A stretch of 64,000 nt of DNA from a virus (IMGVR_UViG_3300023194_000002:20210-84209); one strand, 5' to 3'; numbered from the stretch's first letter, positions 10,743 to 50,872 are shown. Program-made: numbers and translations. The notes: generated by a model from the letters alone, not told the origin.

Positions 10743-12080
10743 ATGGCGTTGAGTGCACAGGCCTATGAGGTGCTTACAGAGCTGTTCAACATACTCAGCG
10801 CCTGCATGGCGAAGGAGCGCGCGAACAGCAATGCGGCATACACCCAGGTTGCGGCGCTCGACGAATTGCGGAAGGGTGGATATGTGCCAACCGACGAGGA
10901 GAGCGCTGTGTACTCGCAGCTGTTCAATGCGGATTTGAGTTGGGACATATTCAACAAGCTGCGCGAGAAAATAGAGACCGTGCAGGCAGGCGGAGACGCG
11001 TTCGACGGATCTGGAGATTCTGGATCTGGCAGCGGTAGCGATGGTAGCGGCGGAAGCGGTGACGGCGATTCTTCTAGCGGCGGAGATTCAGGCGGAGACA
11101 GCTCGGGTGGTGATTCCAGTGGAAGCACGTCTACCACCAAGTGGCTGGCCATCTATTGCAGCGGATACGGCGCGAACCACGAAGGCGACACATCGACGCT
11201 CGCGTTCGAGTCGTGGCTAGGGCGCAGCGTAGATTACGTGATCGACTTCGGCGCGCATGAACTGCAGGCGAACAACGCGCAAGGCGCGTGGGGCAACTAC
11301 CTTGGATCGATCACGTGGGGCGTGAATCAGTGGACGATTGGCAGACCCGTTATCTGGGCCATTCCGATCATCCCTAATAGCGACCAATATGGGCAGCACA
11401 CAGGCGCCAATATGGCGGACGCTGCGAACAACGCCTATGCGGCGTATTGGCGACAGCTCGCGCAAGCAATCTATAACAAGCAGGGGCCGGGCCAGATCGT
11501 CAGAATCGGTTGGGAATATCAGGGTGACTGGTACCCCTGGGGACGCAACCGCAACCAGCTCGGAATCAACAACTCGGTGCTATCGACTGCAACCTATGAG
11601 GCGTATTACAAGGCCGCGTTCCAAAATATCGTCGCCGCGTTCAGATCGGTGGACCCAACGTTCAAGTTCACCTGGAACCCGAATCTGCAAAACCAGTGGC
11701 AGTGGATGGATTTGCAGCTGGAAAACTCATATCCGGGTGATTCGTTCGTCGATTACGTTGGACTGGACGTCTACGAGCAATCGTCATGGAGCGAGACGGA
11801 TGCTACGACGCGCTTCAACAACCAGGTGCTGAATGCAAAGTATGGGCTGAAATGGCTCGCTTCGTTCGGCGCGCAGCACGGAAAACGGCTGTGCATTCCC
11901 GAGTGGGGCGTCGGTCAGAAGGGCGACAACCCGACGATGATCCATTTGATGGCGGACTTCATCGAGGCAAATGATGTCGCCTGGCACGCGTACTGGAACG
12001 GCGGCGTCGATTTCTACAACGGGCTGCTAGACAATTTTCCAAACCAGAAGGCTGCGTATAAGCAGCGGTTTGGATGGTGA
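10743..12080 (+). CDS. GH26-like glycoside hydrolase with unknown N-terminal domain and Gly/Ser/Asp linker
   Basis: RIGWEYQG (acid/base), YPGDSFVDYVGLDVYE, LCIPEWG (nucleophile). Confidence 0.85.
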   Translation: MALSAQAYEVLTELFNILSACMAKERANSNAAYTQVAALDELRKGGYVPTDEESAVYSQLFNADLSWDIFNKLREKIETVQAGGDAFDGSGDSGSGSGSDGSGGSGDGDSSSGGDSGGDSSGGDSSGSTSTTKWLAIYCSGYGANHEGDTSTLAFESWLGRSVDYVIDFGAHELQANNAQGAWGNYLGSITWGVNQWTIGRPVIWAIPIIPNSDQYGQHTGANMADAANNAYAAYWRQLAQAIYNKQGPGQIVRIGWEYQGDWYPWGRNRNQLGINNSVLSTATYEAYYKAAFQNIVAAFRSVDPTFKFTWNPNLQNQWQWMDLQLENSYPGDSFVDYVGLDVYEQSSWSETDATTRFNNQVLNAKYGLKWLASFGAQHGKRLCIPEWGVGQKGDNPTMIHLMADFIEANDVAWHAYWNGGVDFYNGLLDNFPNQKAAYKQRFGW

Positions 12081-13693: not shown

Positions 13694-14074
13694 CTACCGA
13701 GAAACGCCAACCTCGAAGCCGTGCACCTTCAGTCGTCGTGCGCAATCCCACGTGCCGCGGCTATCCGGCCCGGGCAGCGCCAGACAGATAACATCCCAGC
13801 CGTGATCACGGGCCTCTGCGGCTTTGTCCGCGATGCGCTGATTGCGTTCGAGCAGCGCGACTCGGGTGCGCGGGCCTTCGACGCGCATCACGCGTAGAGG
13901 CTTGCCCGCGGCCGTCGCGATCTCGACTGCGAGCGCGTCAGCTCCAGTCGGGCAGTCACCGACGATCACGACGTCGGCCAGCGCCGTAATCGTGGCATCG
14001 ATATCGGCGCGCTGATTGGCCGTGAGCTCTCCACGCGTGCCCGTGATCACGACTGCGGTGCGAGGCTTGGTCAT
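13694..14074 (-). CDS. SLOG/DprA-YspA-like protein
   Basis: VVITGTR...VIVGDCPTGADALA...RNQRIAD...SRGTWDCARR; ATGA overlap with the ftsK stop. Confidence 0.75.
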   Translation of the reverse strand: MTKPRTAVVITGTRGELTANQRADIDATITALADVVIVGDCPTGADALAVEIATAAGKPLRVMRVEGPRTRVALLERNQRIADKAAEARDHGWDVICLALPGPDSRGTWDCARRLKVHGFEVGVSR

Positions 14075-16251
14075 GGATTGAGCACAGGCCGTTGGTTCTT
14101 CTGCGCGGGATCCATGGGCCCGAGGATGCCCTCGCGCTCCAGCTGCATCAGTGCACGTTTGGCGCGTGGCTGGCCGATCGACATTTCGCACATCACTGCG
14201 CTGACAGACACCCAGCGTTGTCCTCGGACGTACGTCAGTAATCGATTGTGCAGCTCATCATCACTCAGCTGCACGGGCGCTGCTGGTGCAGCGGGCTCGG
14301 TTGTGGTGGGCGTCTCGATGACAGCCTGTTTACCGCTCTGCGCGCGCCATGCGGCGCATACGGCCTTCACCTCGTCCGGGCTGATATACGCGCTGTGCAC
14401 GCGCTGCCATTCGGTCGACCCAGGCAGCATGCAGAGGCTATCTCCACGACCGAGTAGCTTTTCGGCGCCGCGGATGTCCATGACGGTCTCGCTGTCTTTG
14501 CCGGATGACACCTTGTAGGTGATACGAGTGGAGAAGTTGGCTTTGATAATGCCAGTAACGACATCCACGCTCGGGCGCTGCGTTGCGAGTATGAGGTGCA
14601 TTCCGGCTGCGCGTCCCTCTGCGGCGATGCGTGAGATCAGCAGTTCAGCCTCTTTTGCCTGAGAGATGAATGACGCGAACTCATCGATCGCGATCACGAC
14701 GCGGTGATAGGGCGCATTGGACCGCGCGTTGTATTCAGCGATCTCCGACTCGCCGACTGCAGCCATGGTGGTGTAGCGGCGTTCCATCTCCTCGAGCGCC
14801 CATCGGAGCAATGCAATCCCGTCTGCAGACTGCACCGCGATCGGCGCGAGCAAATGAGGGATGCCAGCGTAGCGCGATAGCTCGACGCGTTTGGGGTCGA
14901 TCATCAAGATGCGCATCTCGCTAGGTTTGCGCGTGAGCAACAGTGCCGTGAGCCAGCAGTTGAGGCCGACGCTCTTGCCTGAACCGGTGGTGCCAGCGAC
15001 CAACAAGTGTGGAGCGCTGGCGAGATCGAGATACACGGGCGTGCGATCTGGAGCGAGGCCGAGCGGCATGGGGAGTGCGGCCGAGCGGCGAAGCGCGGTC
15101 CACTCGTCGCACTCCATCAGTTCACGCAGCATGACCGTCTGACGATCCTCCTCGTCGAGTGGGACCTCCATTAGGGTGACCTTCCCGCGCTGAGTTACGT
15201 TCACATGCAGCGTGTCGAGCGCCTGCGCGATCTCGGGCGCGAGCTTCTTGATCGTGCTGATTTTCGTTCCTGCAGGTGGCTCGTACTCGTAATACGCGAG
15301 CATCGGCCCCACGTCGCCGCCAGAGACCTGGCCGCCGATGATCTCGTGCTGGTAGAGCGCACGCGTGATCTTTTTGCGGCCGGCGTCGAGCGCGCGCTGC
15401 TTGCCTGCTTTTGTGCGCTCCTTCGGTGTTGCGAGGCGCCGAATGTCCGGGAGTACGTACACAACGGGAGCAGCGTTTGGCGCTGCAATTCCCGGTAAAT
15501 CCTGCTCATCGCTGTCCACCGAGGACTCGATGATGTCCGGACCGTTGTCCACGCTGTTGTCCGGCGCGTAGTCCCTCACATCAACGATGCGAGCACGCGG
15601 CGTCGGCAGCGGAGGGCGCTTCGACGGCGCCGGGTGTGACGCGGGCACCGACTCGCGCACAGTCTCTCCGTGCGTGTCGATCACGGCCTGAGGCGCGTAC
15701 ACACGGGGCCGTGCAGCAGCGGACGGAGCGGGTGCACGCGTAGACGCAGACAGCGCACGCGCAGCAGCAGCCTGACGCTCGATTTCACGAGCGCGAGTCC
15801 ATTCGGAGGCGAACCGACGGGCCATCGAGCCGACGCGCGCGCTCAGCTGCTGCGCATGCGCAGGGCCCATAGCGCGCCGCGCAATTGCCACCAGCACGAT
15901 GGCCAGCAGTACGTAGGCCCCGAGCCCGAAGCCGCGATGAAGCCCCCCGCCCACCATTGAGCCGACGTGCCCAGACGGCGCGCCCAGCAGATCGAGCGTC
16001 GCGGGCAGGCCCACGAGCGACAGGCTCCACCACACGCGCACGATGCCGGGGCTGCGCTGGCTGACAGTCCACCACGACTCCGCGGCGAGCCAGCCCACAC
16101 AGCACCATGTGGCCCAGCCGAATGACGATGATAGCCACGCAGCAAGGCCATCCCCTGCGCGACCGAGTAGGCCGGCCAGCGCTGAGGCGAGCAGCAGCGC
16201 TGTGCCGGCGTAGGTGATTGCGTCCTTGCTGCGGCGGGTCATGGGCGGCAC
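14071..16251 (-). CDS. ftsK: FtsK/SpoIIIE DNA translocase (TM domain, ATPase, C-terminal gamma domain)
   Basis: PHLLVAGTTGSGKS, MIDPKRVEL, IAIDEFA, LATQRPSVDV, GAEKLLGRGD; gamma-like C-terminus. Confidence 0.95.
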   Translation of the reverse strand: MPPMTRRSKDAITYAGTALLLASALAGLLGRAGDGLAAWLSSSFGWATWCCVGWLAAESWWTVSQRSPGIVRVWWSLSLVGLPATLDLLGAPSGHVGSMVGGGLHRGFGLGAYVLLAIVLVAIARRAMGPAHAQQLSARVGSMARRFASEWTRAREIERQAAAARALSASTRAPAPSAAARPRVYAPQAVIDTHGETVRESVPASHPAPSKRPPLPTPRARIVDVRDYAPDNSVDNGPDIIESSVDSDEQDLPGIAAPNAAPVVYVLPDIRRLATPKERTKAGKQRALDAGRKKITRALYQHEIIGGQVSGGDVGPMLAYYEYEPPAGTKISTIKKLAPEIAQALDTLHVNVTQRGKVTLMEVPLDEEDRQTVMLRELMECDEWTALRRSAALPMPLGLAPDRTPVYLDLASAPHLLVAGTTGSGKSVGLNCWLTALLLTRKPSEMRILMIDPKRVELSRYAGIPHLLAPIAVQSADGIALLRWALEEMERRYTTMAAVGESEIAEYNARSNAPYHRVVIAIDEFASFISQAKEAELLISRIAAEGRAAGMHLILATQRPSVDVVTGIIKANFSTRITYKVSSGKDSETVMDIRGAEKLLGRGDSLCMLPGSTEWQRVHSAYISPDEVKAVCAAWRAQSGKQAVIETPTTTEPAAPAAPVQLSDDELHNRLLTYVRGQRWVSVSAVMCEMSIGQPRAKRALMQLEREGILGPMDPAQKNQRPVLNP

Positions 16252-16369
16252 TCCTGGAGCAATTGAAGCGCGATGCAGGTCGCACAGCGGCGCTCGAGGA
16301 GCGCGCAGAACACGCCGCCTGCTGCAGCTGTGATGAGCATGGTGATCACGATCGCGCGGCTCATGGGCG

Positions 16370-16603
16370 TCATGGTGGTGTCCTCACAGATCGGCAGAAC
16401 GCGCAGGTGCACCCCTGCTTTGCGCGCGGATATGACCTGCCGTATTGGTCGAACGAGAAGCCGTGCGGCGCCTCGTCTCGCGGTCGAGGTGGTAGAGGCG
16501 GATTGTCAGATGCCCGCAGCGACGCGAGCAGCACGAGCCACCCGCGACGCAGTACACGTGCGATCTGCACCCCGAGCGCGTCTAGTAGGTCGTAGAGCAT
16601 CAC
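16370..16603 (-). CDS. Hypothetical protein (Cys-containing C-terminus)
   Basis: Coupled in the minus-strand operon upstream of ftsK. Confidence 0.45.
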   Translation of the reverse strand: MMLYDLLDALGVQIARVLRRGWLVLLASLRASDNPPLPPRPRDEAPHGFSFDQYGRSYPRAKQGCTCAFCRSVRTPP

Positions 16604-16770
16604 GACTCCCCGCGATCGCCGTCGTACGAGTAGTCATAGGACTCGACACGATCGCGATGACCGCCTACGCGGATCGGCACGAAGTAGCCATGGGGCGCGG
16701 TCGACTCCAAATAGAGGCCGACCGCGATCGTCACGAACCATGTCAAAAAGAGGCCCTGCCAAAAGGTCAT
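16600..16770 (-). CDS. Small membrane protein
   Basis: MTFWQGLFLTWFVTIAVGLYL hydrophobic helix; ATGA overlaps on both sides. Confidence 0.5.
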   Translation of the reverse strand: MTFWQGLFLTWFVTIAVGLYLESTAPHGYFVPIRVGGHRDRVESYDYSYDGDRGES

Positions 16771-17180
16771 CGGCCCCTCCGGACGTGCATGCGCGTGCGC
16801 GCTGGTCTCTCGGGCTCGGGCTCGTAGTCCCAGTCGTCGCGCTGCTGGTCCCAGATGCCGTCTGGGCCTGGGGAGTAGAACCCAGCACGCACAGATCCGC
16901 CCGTACGCACAGGGTCGTGTGTATCCCGACGCGCGGTCTCTCCCGTCGATGACCACCAGCCGCCGATCGCCATCGCCAGCACGGCGATCAGGATCATGAG
17001 GGGTACTGATGAGATCGTCTCTACAGCTGCGGCGGCGGCGGGTGCAGGCGGATCCGTGGGCGTGATTGCCCTCAGCCGGTCCAGCGCGTCGGACTTCGAC
17101 GCCCGGGCCTTGATTTCGGCGAGGTGCTGCTCGGCCATCTCGGCCTCGATCTGCAGTCTCATTGTGTCGTTTGATGCCAT
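16767..17180 (-). CDS. Coiled-coil + single-TM hypothetical protein
   Basis: AGGAG RBS before MASNDT; TM segment VPLMILIAVLAMAIGGWW. Confidence 0.6.
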   Translation of the reverse strand: MASNDTMRLQIEAEMAEQHLAEIKARASKSDALDRLRAITPTDPPAPAAAAAVETISSVPLMILIAVLAMAIGGWWSSTGETARRDTHDPVRTGGSVRAGFYSPGPDGIWDQQRDDWDYEPEPERPARTRMHVRRGR

Positions 17181-17283
17181 TTGTCTCCTTTCGTGCAAAT
17201 CGTATGCGTTTGCATAGATTGTATACAATGTATCAGACGTTGACGCTCGCCACGTTCGCTGTGACAGTAGCGGACGCTTACAC

Positions 17284-17499
17284 ATGACTAAGAAGCCCCG
17301 AGAATCCGTCTCGCTCCGCCTATCCCCCGAGATCATCGAGGAGGTGGACGAGATCATCGCGCTCGCTCAGTCGATCCTCGGCACGGAGGCGATGACGCGA
17401 CCTGCCATCTATAGAGAGATCGTGCAGGCTGGGGCGAAAGCCGTGCGGGCTAAGTACGAAGCGCTGGCTAAGCACCAGGCTTCGCAGAAGAAGCGCTAG
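17284..17499 (+). CDS. Ribbon-helix-helix (CopG-like) regulator
   Basis: ESVSLRLSPEIIEEVDE...TRPAIYREIV pattern; divergent from the ftsK operon. Confidence 0.7.
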   Translation: MTKKPRESVSLRLSPEIIEEVDEIIALAQSILGTEAMTRPAIYREIVQAGAKAVRAKYEALAKHQASQKKR

Positions 17500-18347
17500 G
17501 CCACTCCCCTCCTGCTCGGCAGTCGCGTCACCTGACTCTCAGGCTCGCTCTCCATCGAGGGCATGAGCGCTCGGCGACGCAGGTCACCGAGCTGAACGGC
17601 AGACATGATCAACGGTCGAGGTCCACCAGGCACGGGTGCGCCGACGACGCCGTCAGCCTCCAGCCGAGCCACCGTGCGGGCGATTTTGTCCGTGCCCATG
17701 CGCAGGTCACGCTTCAGGGCTGCCCCGCTGCACTGGCCAGCGCGGGCGATGTAATCGAGCACGCCGGCATACTCGGCGTCAGGGGATGTGGTGGCTAGGG
17801 GTGGCTCGTCTACCATCGCCTGCAGGGCTGCCCTGGTCGCCTGCGCTGGCAGAGCAGCCCTGGCCGGCTTCGGGCGAGGGGCTGGCACCGCGATCACCTC
17901 GATGTCGGTCGCTCGGTCCGCGGCATCCTGCAGGGCTGCCTGGCAGGCTGCCCCGGTAGCGTTAATCAGCACCAGGACCGCGAGCGCGGCCAGGTCCACC
18001 CACGGATGGAGCTGCACCGCGACGATGCCCTCGGTCAGGGCAACCAGCCCAATAGCGTGGCTGACCGGCCAGTGCCGGCGGAAGAGGTCGACCCCGACGC
18101 GGAACACCGTTGGTGAGGAGGCGTAGAGACCTAGACCCCACAGGTACCAGTAGGGGTTCTCGGGACCAGCAAAGGTAATCTCGCCATCCTGCCAGGTGAT
18201 CAGGTGGCCGAGGTGGCTCAGCGCATAGAGCGCGAGCGGGATAGCCGCGCCGATGGGCGCAGCCATCAGGGCAGCACCGGGGTTGCGGCGAGCGATCCTC
18301 AGCTGATGGAACAGCCCGGGTCGCTCGCTCGTGTGCATCGTGTCCAT
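17496..18347 (-). CDS. Multi-TM protein with C-terminal FtsK-gamma-like winged helix
   Basis: About four hydrophobic segments; DAEYAGVLDYIARAGQCSGAALKRDLRMGTDKIARTVARLEADGVVGAP. Confidence 0.7.
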   Translation of the reverse strand: MDTMHTSERPGLFHQLRIARRNPGAALMAAPIGAAIPLALYALSHLGHLITWQDGEITFAGPENPYWYLWGLGLYASSPTVFRVGVDLFRRHWPVSHAIGLVALTEGIVAVQLHPWVDLAALAVLVLINATGAACQAALQDAADRATDIEVIAVPAPRPKPARAALPAQATRAALQAMVDEPPLATTSPDAEYAGVLDYIARAGQCSGAALKRDLRMGTDKIARTVARLEADGVVGAPVPGGPRPLIMSAVQLGDLRRRALMPSMESEPESQVTRLPSRRGVA

Positions 18348-18537
18348 ACGTATCAATCGTATACGAAACGCACGCCAGGGCAACCAGCCACCCTTGGCCG
18401 GGTCGCCTGCATGTGAGGGACCCGGCCAGGCAATGGTCAGAGCAGGTGATGGCTACCGGTGGATGAGCTACCGGGGGAGATGTGATGACGTCTCGCTGGA
18501 CCGCCCCCCGGCATCCTGTGATAATAGGAGCCGCCCT

Positions 18538-18702
18538 ATGTCGACCAAACAACAACCCGTCATCGATGTCCCTATGCAGTCCGATGCCGAGCGCGCCGAA
18601 GACAGCGCAGTTGTGACGCGTGACGCTCACGATGCGTTCGTGTGGTCGGCCGCGCGCATTATGCTGGCGTTCGACGAGACCTTCCGACGGCTTGCCGAGT
18701 GA
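18538..18702 (+). CDS. Putative antitoxin of Doc
   Basis: 54 aa, AGGAG RBS, GTGA overlap with doc; AFDETFRRLAE C-terminus like Phd-type antitoxins. Confidence 0.7.
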   Translation: MSTKQQPVIDVPMQSDAERAEDSAVVTRDAHDAFVWSAARIMLAFDETFRRLAE

Positions 18703-19130
18703 GCAGCGCTGAGCCGCGATTCCTGACGCTGGACGACGTGCTGCGTCTTCATACGTGGCAGCTAGAGCAGTACGGCGGAAGCGCCGGTGTGCGCGATCAG
18801 GGGCTGCTCGAAGCAGCGATCGCGCAGCCTCAGGCAGGCTTTGGCGGTGAATATCTGCACGCTGACATCTGGGAGATGGCCGCGGCATACCTGTTCCACA
18901 TCGTACAGAACCATCCCTTCATCGATGGAAACAAGCGCGCGGGCCTATACTCAGCGCTTGTGTTTCTGGACGTGAACAGGCACTCGCCAATCGGTTGGTC
19001 CAATGCCGAGATGTTCGCGCTCACCGTGCGCGTCGCATCTGGCGAACTCCACAAGCCTGGAGTCGCCGACGCATTTAGGCGCCTGGGGGTGCTTGAACGT
19101 CCCCCCCAGGTTCCTCTCCTCTGCCGATAA
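18699..19130 (+). CDS. doc: Fic/Doc toxin
   Basis: GVRDQGLLEAA and HPFIDGNKRAG Fic motif. Confidence 0.92.
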   Translation: MSSAEPRFLTLDDVLRLHTWQLEQYGGSAGVRDQGLLEAAIAQPQAGFGGEYLHADIWEMAAAYLFHIVQNHPFIDGNKRAGLYSALVFLDVNRHSPIGWSNAEMFALTVRVASGELHKPGVADAFRRLGVLERPPQVPLLCR

Positions 19131-19183
19131 TGTGTCTCAAACCCCGTTATAACGGGTTTGGAGACATCTTTCCGACGGAGGAG
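19114..19183. repeat. 70-bp imperfect palindrome, copy A
   Basis: CTCTCCTCTGCCGAT...GTGTCTC...TTTCCGACGGAGGAG; both terminal 15-mers are identical to 22400-22469. Confidence 0.85.
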
Positions 19184-19213
19184 GGGAATCGTGCCCGGGG
19201 GAGACGTGCCGGC

Positions 19214-20329
19214 CTACCGCCCGATGAGCACGCGGCGACGACGGGTCACGGGGTCCACCGTGCTCACCACGCCCGCGGCTTCCAGGCGAGCCACCAGGGG
19301 GTAGACACGGTCCCCCAGCATGAGCTTGCGCTCCAGCCAGGAGGGCGTGAACGCGTGCATCCCCTGGAGCAGCAGGATCGCCTTCGCGTACAGGGCATCA
19401 TCAGCCGCGGTGTAGGTGGGCGTCGACGGCGGAGACATCAGCAGGGGTAACTGCTGTGGGGTTGCCTGGTCAGCGGACGAGGCGAGCGCGGCTGGGGGAG
19501 TGGTTGCTACGGGGACCAGGGCAGGCACCGGTGCAGGGGCAGCCACCCTCTTCATCAGGGCATCCAGTTCATCGACCGACGCGATGCACCACTCGCGTGC
19601 ACCCTGTAGGGCAGCGATGCCAGTCGAGGTGGCCAGTAGGCGATGGCGGATGCGCTGGATGGACTCCACGTCCGGAGCAGGTGCGGGTGGGGTTGGTGGT
19701 GCAGGGGGTGCCGGTGCTCTGACCAGCACGCGGGAGAACGTGCCTCTGGGCGCCAACTCGACGATGCCGTCGCTGATGAGGCGGCGGAAGATGCGCTGTC
19801 CTCGGCCCGACCCAACGTGGAAGGTGCGCTTCAGCCACTCGCACGAGACCGTCTCTCGCGTCTTCACCACGGCCACGACCTGCTCGTAGAGGGGGTCGGA
19901 GGCGGGCGGAGTCGAAGCCCTGAGCGCCGGGGGAGTGGTGGGCTGGATGGCAGTGTTTGCGGACTGGGCGCGCAGGGCGCGCTTGATCACGTCTCGTGCC
20001 CAAGCGCGGAACGCATGCGCTTCCGGCGACTTCACGCGCCACATCACGTCGATCACGACGTCCGATGCGTAGTGCTTCGTGCGGTAGGCTTTGCCGTCCG
20101 CGGCAGTGCACAAGTATTCCTTGTGAACTGAATCCCAAGCACTTCCATACAGTTCTGAGATCGACCTCAGATGCAGAGCGATGTTCTGCTGTGTCGTACC
20201 GCTCATCTGGGCCATTTGGGCCTGGGTTGGCCAGAGCTCATCTGCCTCCCAGCGCACTGCCACCACGGCGCCGGTCTGCATGCTGTACTCGTACGTCACG
20301 ACTTCCGTGGTACCAATCGTCTCACTCAT
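19214..20329 (-). CDS. RhuM-like DNA-binding domain fused to two FtsK-gamma-like domains
   Basis: LWPTQAQMAQM...QNIALHL...TAADGKAYRTKHYASDVVIDVMWRVKS (RhuM); DPLYEQVVAVV...GIV and DALYAKAI...GVV. Confidence 0.8.
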   Translation of the reverse strand: MSETIGTTEVVTYEYSMQTGAVVAVRWEADELWPTQAQMAQMSGTTQQNIALHLRSISELYGSAWDSVHKEYLCTAADGKAYRTKHYASDVVIDVMWRVKSPEAHAFRAWARDVIKRALRAQSANTAIQPTTPPALRASTPPASDPLYEQVVAVVKTRETVSCEWLKRTFHVGSGRGQRIFRRLISDGIVELAPRGTFSRVLVRAPAPPAPPTPPAPAPDVESIQRIRHRLLATSTGIAALQGAREWCIASVDELDALMKRVAAPAPVPALVPVATTPPAALASSADQATPQQLPLLMSPPSTPTYTAADDALYAKAILLLQGMHAFTPSWLERKLMLGDRVYPLVARLEAAGVVSTVDPVTRRRRVLIGR

Positions 20330-20396
20330 AGGAGTTTCCTTCCTCGTGGGTCACGACCCGGGCGATGGCCGTCGCGCCGGGTCATTTCATACGAGC

Positions 20397-20456
20397 ACTT
20401 TTTCATACGTAAAAGTTACGCGCAATGAGGCGCGTGATTTTTACGTATGAAAAAGT
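20397..20456. promoter_or_regulatory. Perfect 18-bp inverted repeat (operator) in a divergent promoter region
   Basis: ACTTTTTCATACGTAAAA-N24-TTTTACGTATGAAAAAGT; extra TTTCATACG at 20385. Confidence 0.7.
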
Positions 20457-20499
20457 TACGCTGTTCGCTGTGGCTGCGAAGAAAAAGCCGACAAAGCGC

Positions 20500-20682
20500 A
20501 TGGGAAGGCCCGCCGTTCCAGACGATCAGCGTCTGACGGTGCAGATTGGCCTGAACATGACCCAATCCGACTGGGAACTGCTTGAGTCAACGGCTGAAGA
20601 GCGAGGCGTCCGTCCGGCTGAGCTACTGAGGCAGCTGATACGCGGGCTCACGAAGCAGAAGGCGGGCAGTCCCACCCGCTGA
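20500..20682 (+). CDS. Small RHH-like regulator
   Basis: MGRPAVP...VQIGLNMTQSDWELLESTAEERGVRPAELLRQLI; start may be GTG 20470. Confidence 0.65.
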   Translation: MGRPAVPDDQRLTVQIGLNMTQSDWELLESTAEERGVRPAELLRQLIRGLTKQKAGSPTR

Positions 20683-20793
20683 AAAATTCAGCCCGACGTC
20701 GAATTGATTGGCGCGGCTAGCAATAATTCCCTGATGGTCGCCCGGGTATTTTTACGCTCGTCGTGGAAACGGAACCGACGAACGAGGGAACCT

Positions 20794-20979
20794 ATGGCTT
20801 TGGTGAAATGCGGCGAATGCAAGGGGCAGATCAGCACAAACGCTAAAGCGTGTCCGCACTGCGGTTCGCGGCTCAGCCCAATCACGTCGAGCATGAACCG
20901 GTTGGGCTGGGACATGATGAAGCTCGCGGTTCTTCTGGTGCTGGGGTTTTTCGCGCTGATCGTGTTTGGTAAACGCTGA
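20794..20979 (+). CDS. Zinc-ribbon + TM small protein
   Basis: MALVKCGECKGQISTNAKACPHCG; GAGGGA RBS. Confidence 0.7.
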   Translation: MALVKCGECKGQISTNAKACPHCGSRLSPITSSMNRLGWDMMKLAVLLVLGFFALIVFGKR

Positions 20980-21124
20980 CCAGCGGTAGCCGTGCTGGCG
21001 CGGGGGAGAGGTCCTTCGCAGCACGCAACTATGCGTATTAGCCCGCCGCCGAGCGTGGCGTCACGCCGGCGGAAGTGATCCGCCAGTGTGTACGCGCACA
21101 GCTATCGCGCAGCTTCTAGCTCAC

Positions 21125-21388
21125 TCACCATTCATCCCGATCTTTTGGGCGCGTTATGAGCCCGTGCTCGAGCATGTGCTCGAACCACTCCTTGAAAGCG
21201 CGATGCGTATCCGCAAGCCTTTGAATCCCGGCGTTTAACTCAACCAGCTGCTCGATCAGAGCGACCTTCCAGTCCGCATCCAAACGCCTCTCGTATTCTG
21301 CGGCCTTGCTGGCGTCGCTTATCGCTTCCTGAACGTCAGCGAGCGTTTCCCGCAGACTTTCGAGTGGAATCTTCTCTTCATCCGACAT
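21125..21388 (-). CDS. Hypothetical coiled-coil protein
   Basis: 87 aa ORF from MSDEEK. Confidence 0.45.
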   Translation of the reverse strand: MSDEEKIPLESLRETLADVQEAISDASKAAEYERRLDADWKVALIEQLVELNAGIQRLADTHRAFKEWFEHMLEHGLITRPKDRDEW

Positions 21389-21487
21389 CCCGCCATGGTC
21401 ACGGATCAAGCGTGATCCGATCCATCGGTGGTTAGCTCGCATTTTCGCCGCCATATGAGGCCGCGGCACTAGGGAAGAGGTGGCAGG

Positions 21488-21522
21488 TTGCGAGCTACTA
21501 GCCACCTAGTACACTGCCGGGT
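21488..21522 (+). promoter_or_regulatory. sigma70-like promoter and operator of parDE (leaderless)
   Basis: TTGCGA-N16-TACACT with ATG 7 nt downstream; ACTAG-N4-CTAGT inverted repeat in the spacer. Confidence 0.5.
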
Positions 21523-21762
21523 ATGAGCCGCACCACCAGCTACACCCTGGGCCCCGACCTCGACACCTTCGTTCAGGAGCAGGTTGACAGCGGCGCATTC
21601 AAGTCGGCCAGCGAGGTTGTGCGCGCTGCTCTACGCGCCATGGCAGACGAGCAGCAGAAGGCCGCAGCGCTGCGCGCCGCGATCGACGAGGGCCTAGCCA
21701 GCCCGCTAGCAGAGCCAGGCACCTGGGCCAGGGTCCGGGCAGCTGCGCAGGCGAAGCGGTGA
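21523..21762 (+). CDS. parD: ParD-like antitoxin (RHH, CC2985-type)
   Basis: FVQEQVDSGAFKSASEVVRAALR...LRAAIDEGLAS. Confidence 0.9.
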   Translation: MSRTTSYTLGPDLDTFVQEQVDSGAFKSASEVVRAALRAMADEQQKAAALRAAIDEGLASPLAEPGTWARVRAAAQAKR

Positions 21763-22046
21763 ACGTCCGTTACACGCGTCGCGCAGAGGACGATCTCGTT
21801 GAGATCGGCGTCTACACGCTGATCGAGTGGGGGCCCGAGCAGCGCGACAAGTACCTCGATCTGCTCGAGGCAGCGTGTGAGCGCATCATTCCGCGCAACC
21901 TCAAGCACGCGCGTGACGTCCCTGGGTACGAGGGACTGCTGCGCTGGCGCTGCGAGCGACATGTGATCGTTTTCCGCCGCGTGTCAGACGGCATTGAAAT
22001 TGTGCGTGTGCTCCACGAGCGCATGCTGCCGTCCAAGCATCTATGA
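21759..22046 (+). CDS. parE: ParE toxin
   Basis: YTRRAEDDLVEIGVYTLIEWGPEQRDKYL...RHVIVFR...IEIVRVLHERM. Confidence 0.92.
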   Translation: MNVRYTRRAEDDLVEIGVYTLIEWGPEQRDKYLDLLEAACERIIPRNLKHARDVPGYEGLLRWRCERHVIVFRRVSDGIEIVRVLHERMLPSKHL

Positions 22047-22375
22047 GGAGACAGGCGCTCTATATGGTGGGAATGGACACTGAGAAGCCTTCAGTCTACG
22101 TCGTCGCGGCAATCGACTACGACGCGCGATGGACCATCGCCGTGTACACGACGTTAGCCGCGGCCGAGCAGCACCAGGCCGAGGCTGAACGGCTCGTGAG
22201 CGAGCTGGCCGAGCTCCGAGGTCGTGGCATTGACACGGTCGAAAGCCTGGAACTCCTACCCAGGGTCAAGAGCGTCCTGAATAGACCATGGGACCCGGGC
22301 ACGCCGTCCATCGAGATCGATGAGATGGAGTTGCGCGATGCGGTGCCGTGGTCGGAGCAACCAGCCGGCGAGTGA
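22043..22375 (+). CDS. Hypothetical protein
   Basis: Overlaps the parE stop; VYVVAAIDYD...AVYTT motif. Confidence 0.5.
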   Translation: MRRQALYMVGMDTEKPSVYVVAAIDYDARWTIAVYTTLAAAEQHQAEAERLVSELAELRGRGIDTVESLELLPRVKSVLNRPWDPGTPSIEIDEMELRDAVPWSEQPAGE

Positions 22376-22399
22376 GACCCGCATCTCTCCCCTCCTCCA

Positions 22400-22469
22400 C
22401 TCTCCTCTGCCGATTAAGTGTCTCTAGAGCCGTTCTGGTGGGGGTTGAAACACATTTCCGACGGAGGAG
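22400..22469. repeat. 70-bp imperfect palindrome, copy B
   Basis: Same length, same orientation and same terminal 15-mers as 19114-19183. Confidence 0.85.
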
Positions 22470-22527
22470 ACGTGGCGCTGAGCAGGGGGAGACGAAAAAA
22501 TATTGCTGGCGCGCGCCAGCTGTGAGA

Positions 22528-26225: not shown

Positions 26226-26268
26226 CTGTTAATCGAATGGTCCTAGGTTCGAGTCCTAGTTCCGGAGC
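26226..26268 (+). other. attP core = 3' half of tRNA-Asn(GTT)
   Basis: CTGTTAA anticodon loop, TCGAA, TGGTC, T-arm CTAGG-TTCGAGT-CCTAG, acceptor TTCCGGA+G; no 5' half; adjacent to the integrase; GTRGACAC arm-type repeats at 26143, 26166 (inverted), 26313 and 26325. Confidence 0.85.
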
Positions 26269-37868: not shown

Positions 37869-37900
37869 ATCTAGTGCCTCCTAAATCAAATAGTAAGGTG

Positions 37901-39107: not shown

Positions 39108-39419
39108 TCATGGCTGCACCTCGATGAGGGTGAGCAACGTCGTGAGCAGTGCCATCGCGCCAGCCTCGCCGCGATGAATGACAGACGCTGGGCCTGGAAC
39201 TGCTCCAGAGGACTGCAGCCCCCGCAGCCAATCGCGAGCTTCAAGCGCGGCTTGAGTACCGCGTAGGCGCGGCGCGATGCCAGCATAGTGGAGATGCTCC
39301 GCGGATTCCTCCGCGTCTAGCAGACCCTCGCACAGCGCGCGGATCTGCTGTTGGTGAAGCGATGTCAGTCGGTCAAGGGCCTCCGCCCAGTCGACCATGC
39401 GGATCACGGGCTTGGTCAC
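39108..39419 (-). CDS. Hypothetical protein
   Basis: Coupled ORF between the pentapeptide gene and the recombination genes. Confidence 0.45.
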
Positions 39420-49252: not shown

Positions 49253-50872
49253 ATGAGCGCAGAATATAAAAAGATTGATGATGAGCTTTATGGGGATGCC
49301 GTTGAATTTGTGCGCAGAAGCGGTGTCGTTCGCGGGGTTGACCTTCGGACGGAGTTTAAAATTGGTTCGGTCAGGGTTGATAGGCTGCTGAGCGCAATGG
49401 CCGCAAATGGTCTAGTCGTTCCTCCGGTGACTCCGCGGGGCGTCTGGAAATGGATTGATGCGACTGACGAGGCTGAGGCGAGCGCATCGAGCGCGGATAG
49501 CGTTCCTGACCCGAACGACGCGACGGTTGATGAGTCAGATCAGACAGCCTCTGATTCGCCGCTCGCCTGCGTTGGTGAGGCCGAGGGCTTCAAGATTTAT
49601 CGGTCGCGCGAGGTATTCGGCACGGACGACGAACTCGTCGACGTGCTTGAAATCGGGCGAGCGGCCGGTCTTTCGCGTCCGGAGAACATCCTTCAGACGG
49701 CAGACTCTGTGCTTGGAGATTTTGGTAATGATTCCGGAGTTTTCTGCCGCTGGCAGGAAGCGGGCGCTATTAGCGCCCGCGGCGGAAGGCCTGGCCGTAG
49801 GCTCTACGCCAACTCAGTTGGTTACGGCCTGATCACACAACGGCTGCGCGTTCCTGGCGCAAAGCCCATGCAACTGCTTCAGGCACGGCTGTTTGCTGCT
49901 GCCGCCAAGCTTCGAGATAAGGGTGCGGGCGACGTTTTGCGAGAAATCCGTGAAGACCGCGCGGAGGCCGCGAAAAGGCATCTAGAGTTGCTGGGGCAGA
50001 CACAGAAAACCAACGAAAACCTCACGGCGCTGATCAACCATATAATCACCACGGGCGAGTCAGCTGATCTGGCAAACGCGGACGCGATGATCGCCGTGCG
50101 CCGCGACATCGGGATAGTTGCCCGTGGGCGCCTGCTTCTGGCGCGCGCTGAAAATCGGGCAAGCTCAGACGTGGATGAGTCAGCGAGAATCCAGGAGGAT
50201 TTGCGGCGCGAGTTTGGGGCATCCGTCGACGCTGAGCGATGGCATCTGCAGATTTACGCAGCGGTCGTGAAGCGTATTTATGGCTGGAAGAATGACGTTG
50301 CCAACGCGGTACAGACAAAGCGCACCAACGTAAATGCGGGCGTGTTTATAGGATTTGACGCTGGGTCAAACAATGGCCTGGCCGCGGTTATCGATGGTCG
50401 GCTGTGGGAGACAATGAGGGGTGGTAGCAGAAGCTCAAAGGCAGCGTTTCTCAGGCGATGCCTTCAAAGGGGAGCCGAGTCCGGTCATCGTCTGGCTGTG
50501 GTCGCGATCGAAGACTTCTCAAAAGACAGCGGGGATCTGGAAGATGCGGAGGCTAACATCATCGCAAGCGTTAGGGGGTTTCGCGCCGCTCTGAGCGACG
50601 TAGGTGAAAACCTGTTTGTCGTATGCACCGTGAGGCCTGCTGACTGGAGACGCGTTTTATGCATCTTTGCTATGGGCCGCAAAGAGTATAAGGCAGCGAC
50701 GGCTGCTGCGATTGGTCGGATACATCCCGTAGGAGACCTTACGCATGACGTGATTGACGCGATCGCGATCGCCCAATGGGCCGCCGTATCGCGCACTGTC
50801 CAGGTGGAGATCGCAGCGGCCAAAGCAGAAGCCGCATCACGCGCAGCAGATGAACTCAAGGGGGCCAATTGA
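49253..50872 (+). CDS. FtsK-gamma-like domain + antirepressor-like region + RuvC-like nuclease domain
   Basis: DDELYGDAVEFVRRSG...LRTEFKIG...LLSAMAANGLV; GFDAGSNNG, VAIEDF, HDVIDAIAIA. Confidence 0.65.
   Translation: MSAEYKKIDDELYGDAVEFVRRSGVVRGVDLRTEFKIGSVRVDRLLSAMAANGLVVPPVTPRGVWKWIDATDEAEASASSADSVPDPNDATVDESDQTASDSPLACVGEAEGFKIYRSREVFGTDDELVDVLEIGRAAGLSRPENILQTADSVLGDFGNDSGVFCRWQEAGAISARGGRPGRRLYANSVGYGLITQRLRVPGAKPMQLLQARLFAAAAKLRDKGAGDVLREIREDRAEAAKRHLELLGQTQKTNENLTALINHIITTGESADLANADAMIAVRRDIGIVARGRLLLARAENRASSDVDESARIQEDLRREFGASVDAERWHLQIYAAVVKRIYGWKNDVANAVQTKRTNVNAGVFIGFDAGSNNGLAAVIDGRLWETMRGGSRSSKAAFLRRCLQRGAESGHRLAVVAIEDFSKDSGDLEDAEANIIASVRGFRAALSDVGENLFVVCTVRPADWRRVLCIFAMGRKEYKAATAAAIGRIHPVGDLTHDVIDAIAIAQWAAVSRTVQVEIAAAKAEAASRAADELKGAN

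What the first reader, a model, noticed from the sequence alone, without database searches (positions are those of the whole stretch)
14071..20329. Five FtsK-gamma-like winged-helix domains on four different proteins
Seen: gamma-like motifs (consensus D-x-LY-x-x-A/V...L-x-R-x-x-x-I/MG...L-E-x-x-G-I/V-V) at the C-terminus of FtsK (14071), the C-terminus of a multi-TM protein (17496), twice in the RhuM fusion (19214), and at the N-terminus of the RuvC-like protein (49253). Known: FtsK-gamma reads KOPS (GGGNAGGG) to orient translocation, and Streptomyces TraB uses a similar wHTH to recognise its own element. Inference: a shared DNA-address module that recruits a membrane anchor, a translocase, a RhuM-type DNA binder and a nuclease to the same motif. 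It could serve phage DNA segregation or cell-to-cell transfer, or sabotage host chromosome segregation. This would be an undescribed multi-component system.
Basis: partly seen in the sequence, partly recalled or inferred. Interest (0 to 1): 0.78.

Follow-up and report, generated by a model that had tools for sequence, protein, structure and literature searches.

The report
Five FtsK-gamma-like domains in one phage
An 84-kb temperate phage really does carry five copies of the small DNA-reading head of the bacterial FtsK pump on four proteins, but they belong to three unrelated gene units and not to one shared addressing system; only a membrane DNA-pump cassette, also found in three other mobile elements, looks like a genuine multi-part machine.

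Summary
Observation confirmed. A profile built from these five alone retrieves essentially only FtsK-type gamma domains among 17,130 unrelated ORFs, so they are gamma-family and not generic winged helices.

The "one shared DNA address" reading is not supported:
- The copies are only 20-37% identical to each other.
- They differ at the helix-3 positions that read KOPS in FtsK.
- The phage has no genome-wide polar 8-mer.
- The four proteins lie in three separate functional units.

The three units are:
1. A membrane cassette: 4TM-gamma protein, coiled-coil TM protein, small TM protein and a complete FtsK-like pump. The 4TM-gamma + pump pair recurs in three other mobile elements.
2. A RhuM N-domain fused to two gammas, next to a Doc/Fic toxin gene.
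3. A gamma + Bro-N-like + RuvC-like resolvase in the replication operon. Known phages place gamma proteins beside RusA or RecT.

Gamma domains on phage proteins are already known, with unknown role. Five in one genome and the 4TM-gamma/FtsK cassette are new variants. Its closest working analogue is Streptomyces TraB/SpdB2. A local co-oriented GGGGGAGA cluster is a weak, untested lead. The scan has noted gamma fusions on other DNA before.

The parts
14071..16251 (-). FtsK-like DNA translocase P0001 (723-726 aa): N-terminal membrane anchor, FtsK_alpha, FtsK/SpoIIIE motor and a divergent C-terminal gamma domain.
   Evidence: Pfam FtsK_SpoIIIE 1.5e-41, FtsK_alpha 6e-11, FtsK_gamma 1.2e-5. PHROG 1358, 4.7e-85. 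Walker A GTTGSGKS at 420-427, DEF at 523-525, ATQRPS at 556-561. Hydrophobic segments at 11-29 and 106-124. Relatives P0011, P0012 and L007 are 33-49% identical over their length.
14083..14262 (-). Gamma-like wHTH of the FtsK-like protein.
   Evidence: PF09397, 30.2 bits, E 3e-8.
16239..16373 (-). Small single-TM protein (about 44 aa). Its stop codon abuts the FtsK-like start codon.
   Evidence: Translation. TM segment at 8-26. L007 has a 51-aa single-TM protein at the same position. No sequence similarity is detectable.
16767..17180 (-). Bitopic membrane protein (about 137 aa counted from the internal Met): coiled coil, Pro/Ala linker, one TM.
   Evidence: Translation. TM segment at 56-74. 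L007's 141-aa protein has the same architecture and order, but BLAST is not significant.
17496..18347 (-). 4TM-gamma protein P0002 (280-283 aa): about four hydrophobic helices, a linker, and a C-terminal gamma-like wHTH. It has no motor domain.
   Evidence: Pfam FtsK_gamma 1.4e-6. Hydrophobic segments. Homologous to L007:8155-8820 over the TM part and the gamma part (30% identity, E 5e-27). The P0011 and P0012 contigs carry proteins of 252 and 257 aa flagged FtsK_gamma upstream of the pump gene.
17604..17780 (-). Gamma-like wHTH of the 4TM protein.
   Evidence: PF09397, 31.7 bits, over the cut-off.
18642..19130 (+). Doc/Fic-family toxin gene, convergent with the RhuM fusion gene.
   Evidence: Pfam Fic 4.3e-18. 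PHROG 577, Doc-like toxin, 3.3e-29. Matches the C-terminal part of PADLOC PDC-S23, 9.7e-12. A sigma-70-like promoter lies at 18497-18525.
19214..20329 (-). P0003 (371 aa): RhuM/PDC-S05-type N-domain (aa 7-123), gamma 1, Pro-rich and helical linker, gamma 2.
   Evidence: PADLOC PDC-S05 7.7e-24 and PDC-S23 3e-20 on aa 7-123. 26% identical to the N-terminus of Salmonella RhuM, E 4e-16. Pfam FtsK_gamma 8.2e-14 with 2 stretches. No protein with the same architecture in 5.8 billion.
19751..19900 (-). Gamma 1 of P0003.
   Evidence: PF09397, 36.7 bits. The AF2 model shows helix-helix-helix-strand-strand at pLDDT 65-74. phmmer hits E. coli FtsK gamma 2J5P, E 0.0024.
19223..19405 (-). Gamma 2 of P0003.
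   Evidence: PF09397, 21.7 bits, E 1.4e-5. It is closest to the 4TM protein's gamma: 37% identity and a shared VARLEA(D/A)GVV stretch.
49253..50872 (+). P0004 (539 aa): N-terminal gamma, Bro-N/KilA-N-like middle region (a lead only), coiled coil, C-terminal RuvC-like resolvase. It lies in the replication operon.
   Evidence: Pfam FtsK_gamma 0.0016. PHROG 1770, Holliday junction resolvase, 0.003 on aa 364-512. ESM Atlas structure matches to phage RuvC clusters, TM 0.68-0.77, on aa 362-521. Bro-N/Rha/AntA leads for aa 95-350. Motifs GFDAGS 367, AIEDF 418 and HDVIDAIAIA 498. Neighbours are a replication initiator, a DnaC-like loader and RtcB.
49277..49426 (+). Gamma-like wHTH of P0004.
   Evidence: PF09397, 22.4 bits, E 8.5e-6. 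39% identical to a gamma of the natural triple-gamma protein P0008.
18473..22492 (+). Four co-oriented intergenic copies of GGGGGAGA at 18473, 19197, 21002 and 22485. These are the only copies in the 84-kb genome. They are a candidate binding motif only.
   Evidence: Two of the copies belong to a 70-nt twin palindromic element. The motif is absent from L007.

Best explanation
The five domains are genuine but highly diverged members of the FtsK-gamma winged-helix family. This temperate phage uses them as portable DNA-docking heads in three separate functional units, not as one addressing system.

**Unit 1 (window 14071-18347, minus strand)** is a conserved membrane DNA-translocase cassette. It holds a complete FtsK-type pump (membrane anchor, alpha/beta motor with intact Walker motifs, own gamma). 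It also holds two small membrane proteins translationally coupled to the pump, and a motor-less 4TM protein ending in a gamma-like head.
- Inferred mechanism: the pump forms a hexamer in the membrane.
- The 4TM-gamma partner supplies extra membrane-tethered DNA-binding heads. In FtsK three gamma heads are needed per 8-bp site. The partner would hold or hand DNA to the pump, as SpdB2 does for TraB in Streptomyces.
- The cassette is cargo of mobile elements. Its biological role is open. My rough odds are: moving or spreading element DNA across a septum or envelope 35%; partition or dimer handling of the element 25%; exclusion of foreign DNA 25%.

**Unit 2 (18642-20329)** is a RhuM/Fic-type candidate defence or toxin pair. 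The Fic/Doc part is a separate gene. The RhuM N-domain protein carries two gamma heads where the fused PDC-S23 form of this protein has its Fic domain.

**Unit 3 (49253-50872)** is the Holliday-junction resolvase of the replication operon, with a gamma head and a Bro-N-like domain added as DNA-targeting modules.

Shown: domain identity, architectures, conservation of the 4TM-gamma + pump pair, and gene contexts. Inferred: DNA binding by each head, physical association within the cassette, and every biological role.
For: - There are exactly five PF09397 matches, and FtsK_gamma is the top Pfam family for all four proteins.
- A profile built from the five copies retrieves essentially only FtsK-type gammas among 17,130 ORFs.
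- Pairwise identity among the five is 20-37%, no higher than to cellular gammas. Helix-3 positions differ between copies.
- The cassette is conserved. The closest pump relatives are P0011 (49% identity), P0012 (44%) and L007 (33% over the full length). Each has a 221-257-aa gamma-flagged protein 1-2 kb upstream on the same strand.
- The L007 partner protein is homologous to P0002 across the TM and gamma parts, E 5e-27.
- L007 has single-TM proteins of similar size in the same order before the pump.
- L007 is a complete 17.4-kb satellite-like element with a primase-helicase, a Neck1/tail-completion protein, a terS-like HTH and a SocA/Panacea antitoxin.
- 47 other viral FtsK-like loci have no gamma at all.
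- For unit 2, PADLOC PDC-S05/S23 matches the P0003 N-domain, and PDC-S23's C-terminal part matches the Doc gene. The N-domain is homologous to RhuM itself.
- For unit 3, RuvC-like evidence comes, and the replication-operon context.
- Known phages place motor-less gamma proteins in recombination modules. Examples are prophiT49-1 gp18, which overlaps RusA, phi297 gp12 next to RecT, and RcKemmy gp60 with 2 gammas plus GapR.
- From the literature: a single gamma binds KOPS weakly, three bind one site, and a free gamma activates XerCD (PMC3384302).
- From the literature: SpdB2 is a 4-TM, dsDNA-binding, pore-forming partner that co-purifies with TraB. Its homologues occur on actinophages (PMC4447253).
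- From the literature: stand-alone and terminase-fused gamma genes are known in phages, with unknown role (PMC8190038).
Against: - No DNA-binding data exist for any copy. Divergent recognition residues do not prove different targets.
- The four only copies of GGGGGAGA in the genome are co-oriented, intergenic, and clustered within 4 kb of the gamma genes. This would fit a common local target.
- P0002's gamma and gamma 2 of P0003 are the closest pair (37% identity, with a shared 10-residue stretch). This hints at a link between units 1 and 2.
- Homology of the two small membrane proteins to their L007 counterparts is not detectable by BLAST.
- DNA of the P0011 and P0012 contigs could not be read.
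- The host is unknown.
Confidence: 0.6

Rival explanations
1. All five gamma heads read one phage-specific DNA word, with the co-oriented GGGGGAGA octamer as candidate. This would bring the membrane anchor, the pump, the RhuM-type protein and the resolvase to the same sites as a single multi-component system.
For: - All five domains belong to the same narrow family.
- Five copies on four proteins is an outlier among the phage records checked.
- GGGGGAGA occurs only four times in 84 kb. All four are on the + strand, intergenic, and within 18.4-22.5 kb beside three of the genes.
- Only 3 of all 8-mers show such clustering. Two of the three are overlapping forms of this word.
- The word is G-rich like KOPS and SRS.
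Against: - The domains are 20-37% identical, with different residues at the base-reading positions.
- No genome-wide polar or over-represented word exists. The best p-value is 1.7e-4 among more than 1,200 tests per word length.
- A clustered one-strand 8-mer arises in 7 of 30 Markov-simulated genomes.
- Two of the four sites belong to one duplicated 70-nt element, so they are not independent.
- The word is absent from the related cassette element L007.
- Only two of the four proteins are co-conserved elsewhere.
- The resolvase gene is in a different operon 30 kb away, with no GGGGGAGA nearby.
Confidence: 0.1
2. The gamma-like heads act mainly by protein-protein contact with tyrosine recombinases or resolvases, as FtsK-gamma activates XerD. 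In this model the phage uses them to switch host XerCD, or its own 565-aa integrase, on or off, or to couple junction resolution to DNA translocation.
For: - The same gamma surface that binds KOPS contacts XerD. R1289 is the key residue, and a 9-residue stretch is enough for activation (PMC5052618).
- A free gamma activates XerCD/dif in vivo (PMC3384302).
- The R1289-equivalent is kept in three of the five copies: the 4TM protein and both RhuM gammas.
- Phage-encoded Xer activators exist, for example XafT of the TLC satellite phage (PMC6744903, PMC9226527).
- One head is fused to a resolvase here. In known phages gamma proteins sit next to RusA or RecT.
- The cassette lies about 8 kb from the integrase gene.
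Against: - R1289 is also a DNA-contact residue, so its conservation does not discriminate.
- It is absent from the pump's own gamma and from the resolvase's gamma.
- The host and its XerD are unknown, so no interface could be tested.
- No dif-like site was looked for.
Confidence: 0.15
3. The cassette is a true TraB/Spd-type conjugation-like apparatus. It would pump double-stranded phage or element DNA into neighbouring cells or compartments, with the pump's gamma head recognising a clt-like site on the element.
For: - The architecture matches TraB plus SpdB2 plus small Spd proteins. This means a membrane pump with a C-terminal wHTH, a 4-TM DNA-binding partner, and small translationally coupled membrane proteins (PMC4447253).
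- The related carriers have an integrase, an HTH_17 excisionase-like gene and a primase/helicase, as AICEs do.
- The phage's replication initiator has relatives only in actinophages among 50,697 phage records.
Against: - P0001 is an FtsK-proper type with alpha, beta and gamma. It is about 37-42% identical to cellular FtsK, and its best plasmid hits are chromid FtsK genes, not TraB.
- P0002 has no detectable similarity to any plasmid protein.
- No clt-like repeat array lies near the cassette.
- The carriers encode virion-related parts and so already spread by particles.
- Host hints are contradictory. The nearest relatives of the RhuM N-domain are alphaproteobacterial MAGs, and a baseplate protein matches an Alteromonas phage.
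Confidence: 0.15

Closest known systems
Cellular FtsK/SpoIIIE gamma domain (Pfam PF09397; E. coli 2J5P, P. aeruginosa 2VE8/2VE9)
   Same: Same domain family by profile in both directions. Same helix-1 D-x-L-Y/F motif, the Gly before helix 3, the conserved Arg at position 1297, and G-I/V-V after helix 3. One copy sits at the C-terminus of a complete FtsK-type pump.
   Different: Scores are 22-37 bits against about 94 for a cellular gamma. The KOPS-reading positions N1296 and E1303 are replaced in all five copies. Four copies sit on proteins without a motor. No KOPS-like polar word exists in the genome.
Streptomyces TraB translocase with SpdB2 and small Spd proteins (plasmid pSVH1; PMC4447253)
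   Same: Working architecture: a membrane-anchored FtsK-like pump with a C-terminal wHTH, a 4-TM DNA-binding partner, small translationally coupled membrane proteins, and carriage on mobile elements. SpdB2 homologues are reported on actinophages.
   Different: No sequence similarity of P0002 to plasmid proteins. The pump is closer to cellular FtsK than to TraB. No clt-like array is present. The partner's DNA-binding part is a gamma-like wHTH. The host is unknown.
Motor-less gamma proteins of known phages: Bacillus phages Sam46/Sam112 small terminase (PMC8190038), Pseudomonas phage phi297 gp12 (323 aa, gamma at 163-223; the 325-position profile phrog_6576 carries its gamma-like stretch at about 158-228), Mycobacterium prophage prophiT49-1 gp18, Rhodobacter phage RcKemmy gp60
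   Same: A gamma domain is used as a portable module on non-translocase phage proteins. It is associated with recombination genes: RusA overlaps gp18, and RecT sits next to gp12. RcKemmy gp60 carries tandem gammas with another DNA-binding domain.
   Different: Those phages have one gamma-bearing protein, with strong scores of 52-106 bits. Here there are four proteins and five weak-scoring copies. The fusion partners here (4TM, RhuM N-domain, Bro-N-like plus RuvC) were not found elsewhere.
RhuM family / PADLOC candidate defence genes PDC-S05 and PDC-S23
   Same: P0003 aa 7-123 matches their N-domain (E 8e-24). It is homologous to Salmonella RhuM.
   Different: The Fic-like C-terminal part of PDC-S23 is not on P0003. 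A Doc/Fic protein is encoded by the neighbouring convergent gene, and P0003 carries two gamma heads instead.
Phage RuvC-family Holliday junction resolvases (PHROG 1770)
   Same: The C-terminal 160 residues of P0004 match by weak profile and by predicted structure. Acidic motifs are at the expected places, and the gene is in the replication/recombination operon.
   Different: About 360 extra N-terminal residues carry a gamma-like wHTH and a Bro-N/KilA-N-like region. No full-length relative exists in 1.84 billion representatives.

Membership tests
FtsK_gamma domain (PF09397) | Match to the family profile at or above the curated cut-off (30.6 bits). | tested here: inconclusive
   Two copies are over the cut-off (36.7 and 31.7). 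One is at 30.2. Two are below (22.4 and 21.7), with E about 1e-5 for the genome. FtsK_gamma is the best Pfam family in all four proteins.
FtsK_gamma domain (PF09397) | Specific to gamma, as opposed to generic winged helix (reciprocal search). | tested here: met
   An HMM of the five copies, run against 17,130 ORFs of 136 loci, gives 96 domain hits. 90 are on ORFs over 400 aa and 78 are at the C-terminus. They are essentially all FtsK or gamma-bearing partner proteins, with no other wHTH family.
FtsK_gamma domain (PF09397) | Three helices followed by a beta wing. | tested here: inconclusive
   The AF2 model of P0003 shows H146-157, H163-170, H175-186, E190-192 and E201-203 at pLDDT 65-74 for gamma 1 only. 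Gamma 2 and the P0004 model are too poor to use.
FtsK_gamma domain (PF09397) | KOPS-reading residues of helix 3 (E. coli N1296, R1300, E1303; residue list recalled from Sivanathan 2006, numbering checked against PMC5052618). | tested here: not met
   Position 1296 is P/D/G/D/V. Position 1303 is M/A/R/A/S. Position 1300 is R in four copies and P in one.
FtsK_gamma domain (PF09397) | Binds a short polar DNA word that is skewed along the replicon. | tested here: not met
   The 84-kb genome has 3 GGGNAGGG, 2 GAGAAGGG and 3 GACCCGGA sites. No significantly skewed 6- to 8-mer exists. Binding itself cannot be tested here.
FtsK/SpoIIIE translocase (P0001) | Alpha and beta motor domains with Walker A, Walker B and the conserved TQRP motif. 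| tested here: met
   PF17854 6e-11 and PF01580 1.5e-41. GTTGSGKS, DEF and ATQRPS are present and invariant in the four-member clade.
FtsK/SpoIIIE translocase (P0001) | N-terminal membrane anchor. | tested here: met
   Hydrophobic segments at 11-29 and 106-124. The N-terminal 130 residues are conserved in P0011, P0012 and L007. FtsK_4TM itself gives only E 0.29.
Streptomyces TraB/Spd conjugation apparatus | Homology of the pump to TraB and of the partner to SpdB2. | tested here: not met
   P0002 has no match in 72,556 plasmids. P0001's best plasmid matches are chromid ftsK genes at 37% identity, and Streptomyces records rank low.
Streptomyces TraB/Spd conjugation apparatus | A clt locus: a local array of 8-bp repeats recognised by the pump's wHTH. 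| tested here: not met
   No repeat array lies in 13-23 kb. Only four dispersed GGGGGAGA copies are present.
Streptomyces TraB/Spd conjugation apparatus | Host is a mycelial actinomycete. | tested here: inconclusive
   Relatives of the replication initiator occur only in actinophages. The nearest relatives of the RhuM N-domain are in alphaproteobacterial MAGs, and a baseplate protein matches an Alteromonas phage.
RhuM / PDC-S05 / PDC-S23 | N-terminal RhuM-type domain. | tested here: met
   PDC-S05 7.7e-24 and PDC-S23 3e-20 on aa 7-123. Salmonella RhuM E 4e-16. Pfam Virulence_RhuM gives 31.5 bits, below its 33.7 cut-off.
RhuM / PDC-S05 / PDC-S23 | C-terminal Fic-like part on the same polypeptide (PDC-S23). 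| tested here: not met
   P0003's C-terminal 250 residues are two gammas and a linker. The Fic/Doc match to PDC-S23 positions 221-306 lies on the neighbouring gene at 18642-19130.
RuvC-like Holliday junction resolvase (P0004 C-terminus) | RNase H-like fold with catalytic acidic residues. | tested here: inconclusive
   PHROG 1770 E 0.003. ESM Atlas model matches phage RuvC clusters at TM 0.68-0.77. Motifs GFDAGS, AIEDF and HDVIDAIAIA are read by eye. No PDB sequence hit. My own AF2 model is unusable.

The most novel reading that the evidence does not exclude
The 4TM-gamma protein, two small membrane proteins and the FtsK-type pump form an undescribed membrane DNA-translocation machine carried by phages and satellite-like elements. 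It would either spread element DNA between cells without particles, as a TraB/Spd-like route outside known plasmids, or pump out foreign DNA. In this phage the same gamma-type head, reading the local co-oriented GGGGGAGA sites, would also tie the RhuM/Doc pair and the resolvase to that machine.
Probability: 0.12. Interest if true: 0.8.

Novelty: new variant of a known kind. Interest (0 to 1): 0.45.

Why it matters
- FtsK-gamma is the textbook example of a protein head that reads a polar DNA word. Its occurrence on phage proteins has been noted, but its role there is unknown (PMC8190038).
- This phage has the richest set seen here, five heads on four architectures. That makes it a good test bed for whether phage gammas read DNA words, touch recombinases, or both.
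- The 4TM-gamma + FtsK-like pump pair gives a concrete, testable unit. It is conserved in four mobile elements. Some uncultivated bacteria have a comparable arrangement: a motor-less protein ending in a gamma domain directly downstream of ftsK, one copy with a weak FtsK_4TM match.
- That unit could show how extra membrane-tethered gamma heads modulate an FtsK-type pump.
- If the cassette moves or excludes DNA, it would be a new kind of mobile-element cargo.
- If the heads are simply interchangeable DNA-binding modules, the finding is an ordinary case of domain shuffling in phage regulatory and nuclease proteins.

Tried and rejected
- **Complex prediction.** The N-terminal membrane part of the pump was folded against the 4TM part of P0002. 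The result was no verdict (score 0.00), so it is not used as evidence either way.
- **AF2 without alignments.** P0004 (pLDDT 38.7) and P0003 (46.5) are unusable apart from gamma 1, so no fold search was run.
- **Close relatives of P0002 and P0003.** None were found in IMG/VR, nor of P0002 in metagenome contigs. The scan with P0011 returned only generic cellular FtsK loci. P0011's and P0012's own contigs have no retrievable DNA.
- **Known polar words.** GGGNAGGG, GAGAAGGG and GACCCGGA occur 2-3 times each, which is no enrichment. A genome-wide skew scan of 6- to 8-mers found nothing significant after correction.
- **GAGGTACG x5 at 39782-39962.** It looked like iterons. It is explained by coding repeats of a pentapeptide-repeat gene.
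- **PDB sequence search** of the RuvC-like part gave no hit.
- **Host identification** gave contradictory hints. The sequencing-run search gave only a small share in one subsurface metagenome, which is not used.
- **Doc against Salmonella RhuM by BLAST** was not significant. The split-gene argument therefore rests on the PADLOC profile only.
- **Homology of the two small membrane proteins** to their L007 counterparts was not detectable. Only size, order and TM position agree.
- **P0002's TM part against the pump's TM part** showed no similarity.
- **ARAGORN tRNA-Val** inside the pump gene, antisense and 91 nt long, is treated as a false call.

Full report
**What the window is**

The window is bases 20210-84209 of a complete 84,209-bp virus record with a 121-bp terminal overlap. 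The phage is temperate: a 565-aa tyrosine integrase lies at 26243-27940. G+C is about 60%.

The flagged stretch, 14-20 kb, lies between late genes (a glycosyl hydrolase at 10743-12080) and the integrase. This is the usual accessory region of a temperate phage. The fifth domain lies 30 kb away in the rightward replication operon, which holds a replication initiator, a DnaC-like loader and RtcB.

Yes.

Scores are 36.7, 31.7, 30.2, 22.4 and 21.7 bits against a cut-off of 30.6.
- FtsK_gamma is the best Pfam family in each of the four proteins.
- A profile built from the five copies finds no sixth copy in the genome.
- The decisive control is the reciprocal search. The same profile, run against 17,130 ORFs from 136 unrelated loci, retrieves essentially only C-terminal gamma domains of FtsK proteins and a few gamma-bearing partners. 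It retrieves no other winged-helix family.
- The copies are nevertheless far from the cellular form, which scores 94 bits in a Hyphomonadaceae genome.

**Do the five heads share one address?**

The evidence is against it, although binding was not tested.

- Pairwise identity is 20-37%, no higher than to E. coli or Hyphomonadaceae gammas.
- I used E. coli numbering. It is consistent with R1289, R1297 and G1318 as named in PMC5052618.
- Position 1296 reads P/D/G/D/V and position 1303 reads M/A/R/A/S.
- Only the scaffold Arg 1297 is kept in all five. R1300 is kept in four.
- That N1296, R1300 and E1303 are the KOPS-blind positions is my recollection of Sivanathan et al. 2006. That paper is not held in the library.
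- The genome has 3 GGGNAGGG, 2 GAGAAGGG and 3 GACCCGGA sites. No 6- to 8-mer has a significant strand skew.

- GGGGGAGA occurs only four times in the genome. All four are on the + strand and intergenic, at 18473, 19197, 21002 and 22485.
- Only three of all 8-mers in the genome cluster in this way.
- However, such a cluster appears in 7 of 30 simulated genomes.
- Two of the four sites belong to one duplicated 70-nt palindromic element.
- The word is absent from the related element L007.
- I keep it as a candidate operator or binding word and nothing more.

**Unit 1: a conserved membrane translocase cassette**

P0001 is a full FtsK-type protein. It has an N-terminal membrane anchor, alpha and beta domains with an intact Walker A motif, DEF and TQRP, and a gamma domain.

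Its three closest relatives among 5.8 billion proteins and in IMG/VR are P0011 (49% identity), P0012 (44%) and the L007 protein (33% over the full length). They form a clade with a conserved anchor and a divergent gamma.

- In all three, a gamma-flagged protein lies 1-2 kb upstream on the same strand. It is 252 aa (P0011 contig), 257 aa (P0012 contig) and 221 aa (L007).
- The L007 copy is homologous to P0002 over both the four-helix membrane part and the gamma-like part (30% identity, E 5e-27).
- Between the two genes, this phage and L007 both have a protein of about 140 aa (coiled coil, Pro/Ala linker, one TM). Both then have a single-TM protein of about 45-50 aa whose stop abuts the pump's start. 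Their sequence homology is not detectable.
- L007 is a complete 17.4-kb element with a primase-helicase, a Neck1/tail-completion protein, a terS-like HTH and a SocA/Panacea antitoxin. This is a satellite-like mobile element.
- The P0011 and P0012 contigs carry VapE/D5 primase and HTH_17 genes, and the P0011 contig also an integrase.
- By contrast, 47 other viral FtsK-like loci have no gamma at all.
- In seven cellular metagenome loci, a motor-less protein ending in a gamma domain lies directly downstream of ftsK. One copy also has a weak FtsK_4TM match. An FtsK paired with a motor-less, gamma-ending protein is therefore not confined to mobile elements.

The closest working analogue is the Streptomyces TraB/Spd apparatus. 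SpdB2 is an oligomeric 4-TM protein that binds dsDNA, forms pores and co-purifies with the FtsK-like TraB. The spd genes are translationally coupled, and SpdB2 homologues occur on actinophages (PMC4447253).

Membership in that family fails on three counts.

- P0002 has no plasmid match.
- The pump is closer to cellular FtsK than to TraB.
- There is no clt-like array.

The inferred mechanism is as follows. The pump forms a hexamer in the membrane, and the 4TM-gamma partner adds membrane-tethered DNA heads. This is plausible because a single gamma binds weakly and three are needed per site (PMC3384302). What the cassette does for the element is open: spread, partition or exclusion.

**Unit 2: RhuM N-domain with two gammas, next to Doc**

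- P0003 aa 7-123 matches the N-domain of the PADLOC candidate defence genes PDC-S05 and PDC-S23 (E 8e-24). It also matches Salmonella RhuM itself (E 4e-16).
- The C-terminal Fic-like part of PDC-S23 matches the neighbouring convergent Doc/Fic gene at 18642-19130 instead.
- The pair therefore looks like a split form of a RhuM/Fic gene. In P0003, two gamma heads stand where the fused PDC-S23 form has its Fic part.
- No protein with this architecture exists in 5.8 billion.
- No Phd-like antitoxin gene precedes doc. A sigma-70-like promoter lies just downstream of one GGGGGAGA copy.

**Unit 3: gamma + Bro-N-like + RuvC-like resolvase**

- The C-terminal 160 residues of P0004 match PHROG 1770 weakly (E 0.003).
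- They match phage RuvC clusters by predicted structure (TM 0.68-0.77).
- They carry acidic motifs at the expected places.
- The middle region gives only leads to the Bro-N/KilA-N/Rha/AntA group.
- No full-length relative exists in 1.84 billion representatives. The best partial hit is P0008, a natural protein made of three tandem gammas.
- Known phages show the same association as separate genes. prophiT49-1 gp18 (gamma 81 bits) overlaps a RusA resolvase. phi297 gp12 lies between RecT and a Rad50-like protein. RcKemmy gp60 has two gammas plus a GapR-like domain.
- This fits a role of gamma heads in phage recombination or junction resolution. The head could act by DNA targeting, or by recombinase contact as in FtsK-gamma and XerD (PMC5052618).

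**Comparison with what is known, and novelty**

- Gamma domains on phage proteins are documented. They occur on a small terminase and as stand-alone genes, "role unknown" (PMC8190038).
- They are present in several PHROG families.
- Earlier notes of this scan describe gamma fusions on a phage nuclease and on a membrane scaffold in other genomes. I did not check those notes.
- Phage FtsK-like genes are common.
- Three things are new here. First, five heads on four proteins; other records checked have one or two. Second, three fusion architectures not found elsewhere. Third, the conserved 4TM-gamma/FtsK-like cassette.
- I class this as a new variant of a known kind.

**Verdict**

- Observation confirmed. 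Interpretation partly supported.
- Best explanation (0.6): independently recruited gamma-family heads in three units, of which only the membrane pump cassette is a real multi-part system.
- Rivals: one shared address (0.1); recombinase-contact function (0.15); true TraB/Spd-type DNA spread (0.15).
- Interest 0.45.

Noticed in passing
L118, L120, L121, L124, L127, L131, L133 (metagenome loci): In seven cellular loci a motor-less protein of 450-740 aa ending in an FtsK_gamma domain lies directly downstream of ftsK. The L121 copy also has a weak FtsK_4TM match. It looks like an unstudied 'FtsK without motor' partner.
   Followed up: partly
L137:1709-3198 (Mycobacterium prophage prophiT49-1 gp18-gp19): A 353-aa protein with a strong gamma domain (81 bits), annotated 'EccC-like translocase' but without a motor, overlaps the start of a RusA resolvase. 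It follows RecE/RecT.
   Followed up: partly
L138:2531-3865 (Rhodobacter phage RcKemmy gp60): The protein has two tandem gamma domains followed by a GapR-like DNA-binding domain. It is annotated as hypothetical.
   Followed up: partly
window 19114-19183 and 22400-22469: Twin 70-nt imperfect palindromic elements, 77% identical, each followed about 14 bp later by GGGGGAGA. The first lies between the convergent doc and P0003 genes. The second lies just before the mini-CRISPR unit noted by others.
   Followed up: partly
window 20397-20456: A 27-nt inverted repeat, 93% complementary and A+T-rich, lies in the divergent intergenic region upstream of P0003. It is a likely operator.
   Followed up: no
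window 39416-40084: A pentapeptide-repeat protein gene. Its coding repeats explain five co-oriented GAGGTACG copies at 39782-39962.
   Followed up: yes
window 18642-19130: A Doc/Fic toxin gene with its own promoter-like site and no Phd-like antitoxin gene upstream.
   Followed up: partly
window 36585-38842: A RecT-family annealase (with a weak DUF1192 tail) and a YqaJ-type exonuclease form a Red-like recombination pair on the minus strand.
   Followed up: no
window 52148-53401: An RtcB-type RNA ligase gene (PHROG 1075, E 2.5e-147) lies in the replication operon downstream of the resolvase fusion.
   Followed up: no
window 15550-15640: ARAGORN calls a 91-nt tRNA-Val(aac) antisense inside the FtsK-like gene. 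It is probably a false positive.
   Followed up: no
L141 (IMGVR_UViG_3300023194_000076, 17,428 bp): A complete small element with terminal overlap. It carries the FtsK cassette, a primase-helicase, a Neck1/tail-completion protein, a terS-like HTH and a SocA/Panacea antitoxin. It is a satellite-like carrier of the same cassette.
   Followed up: partly
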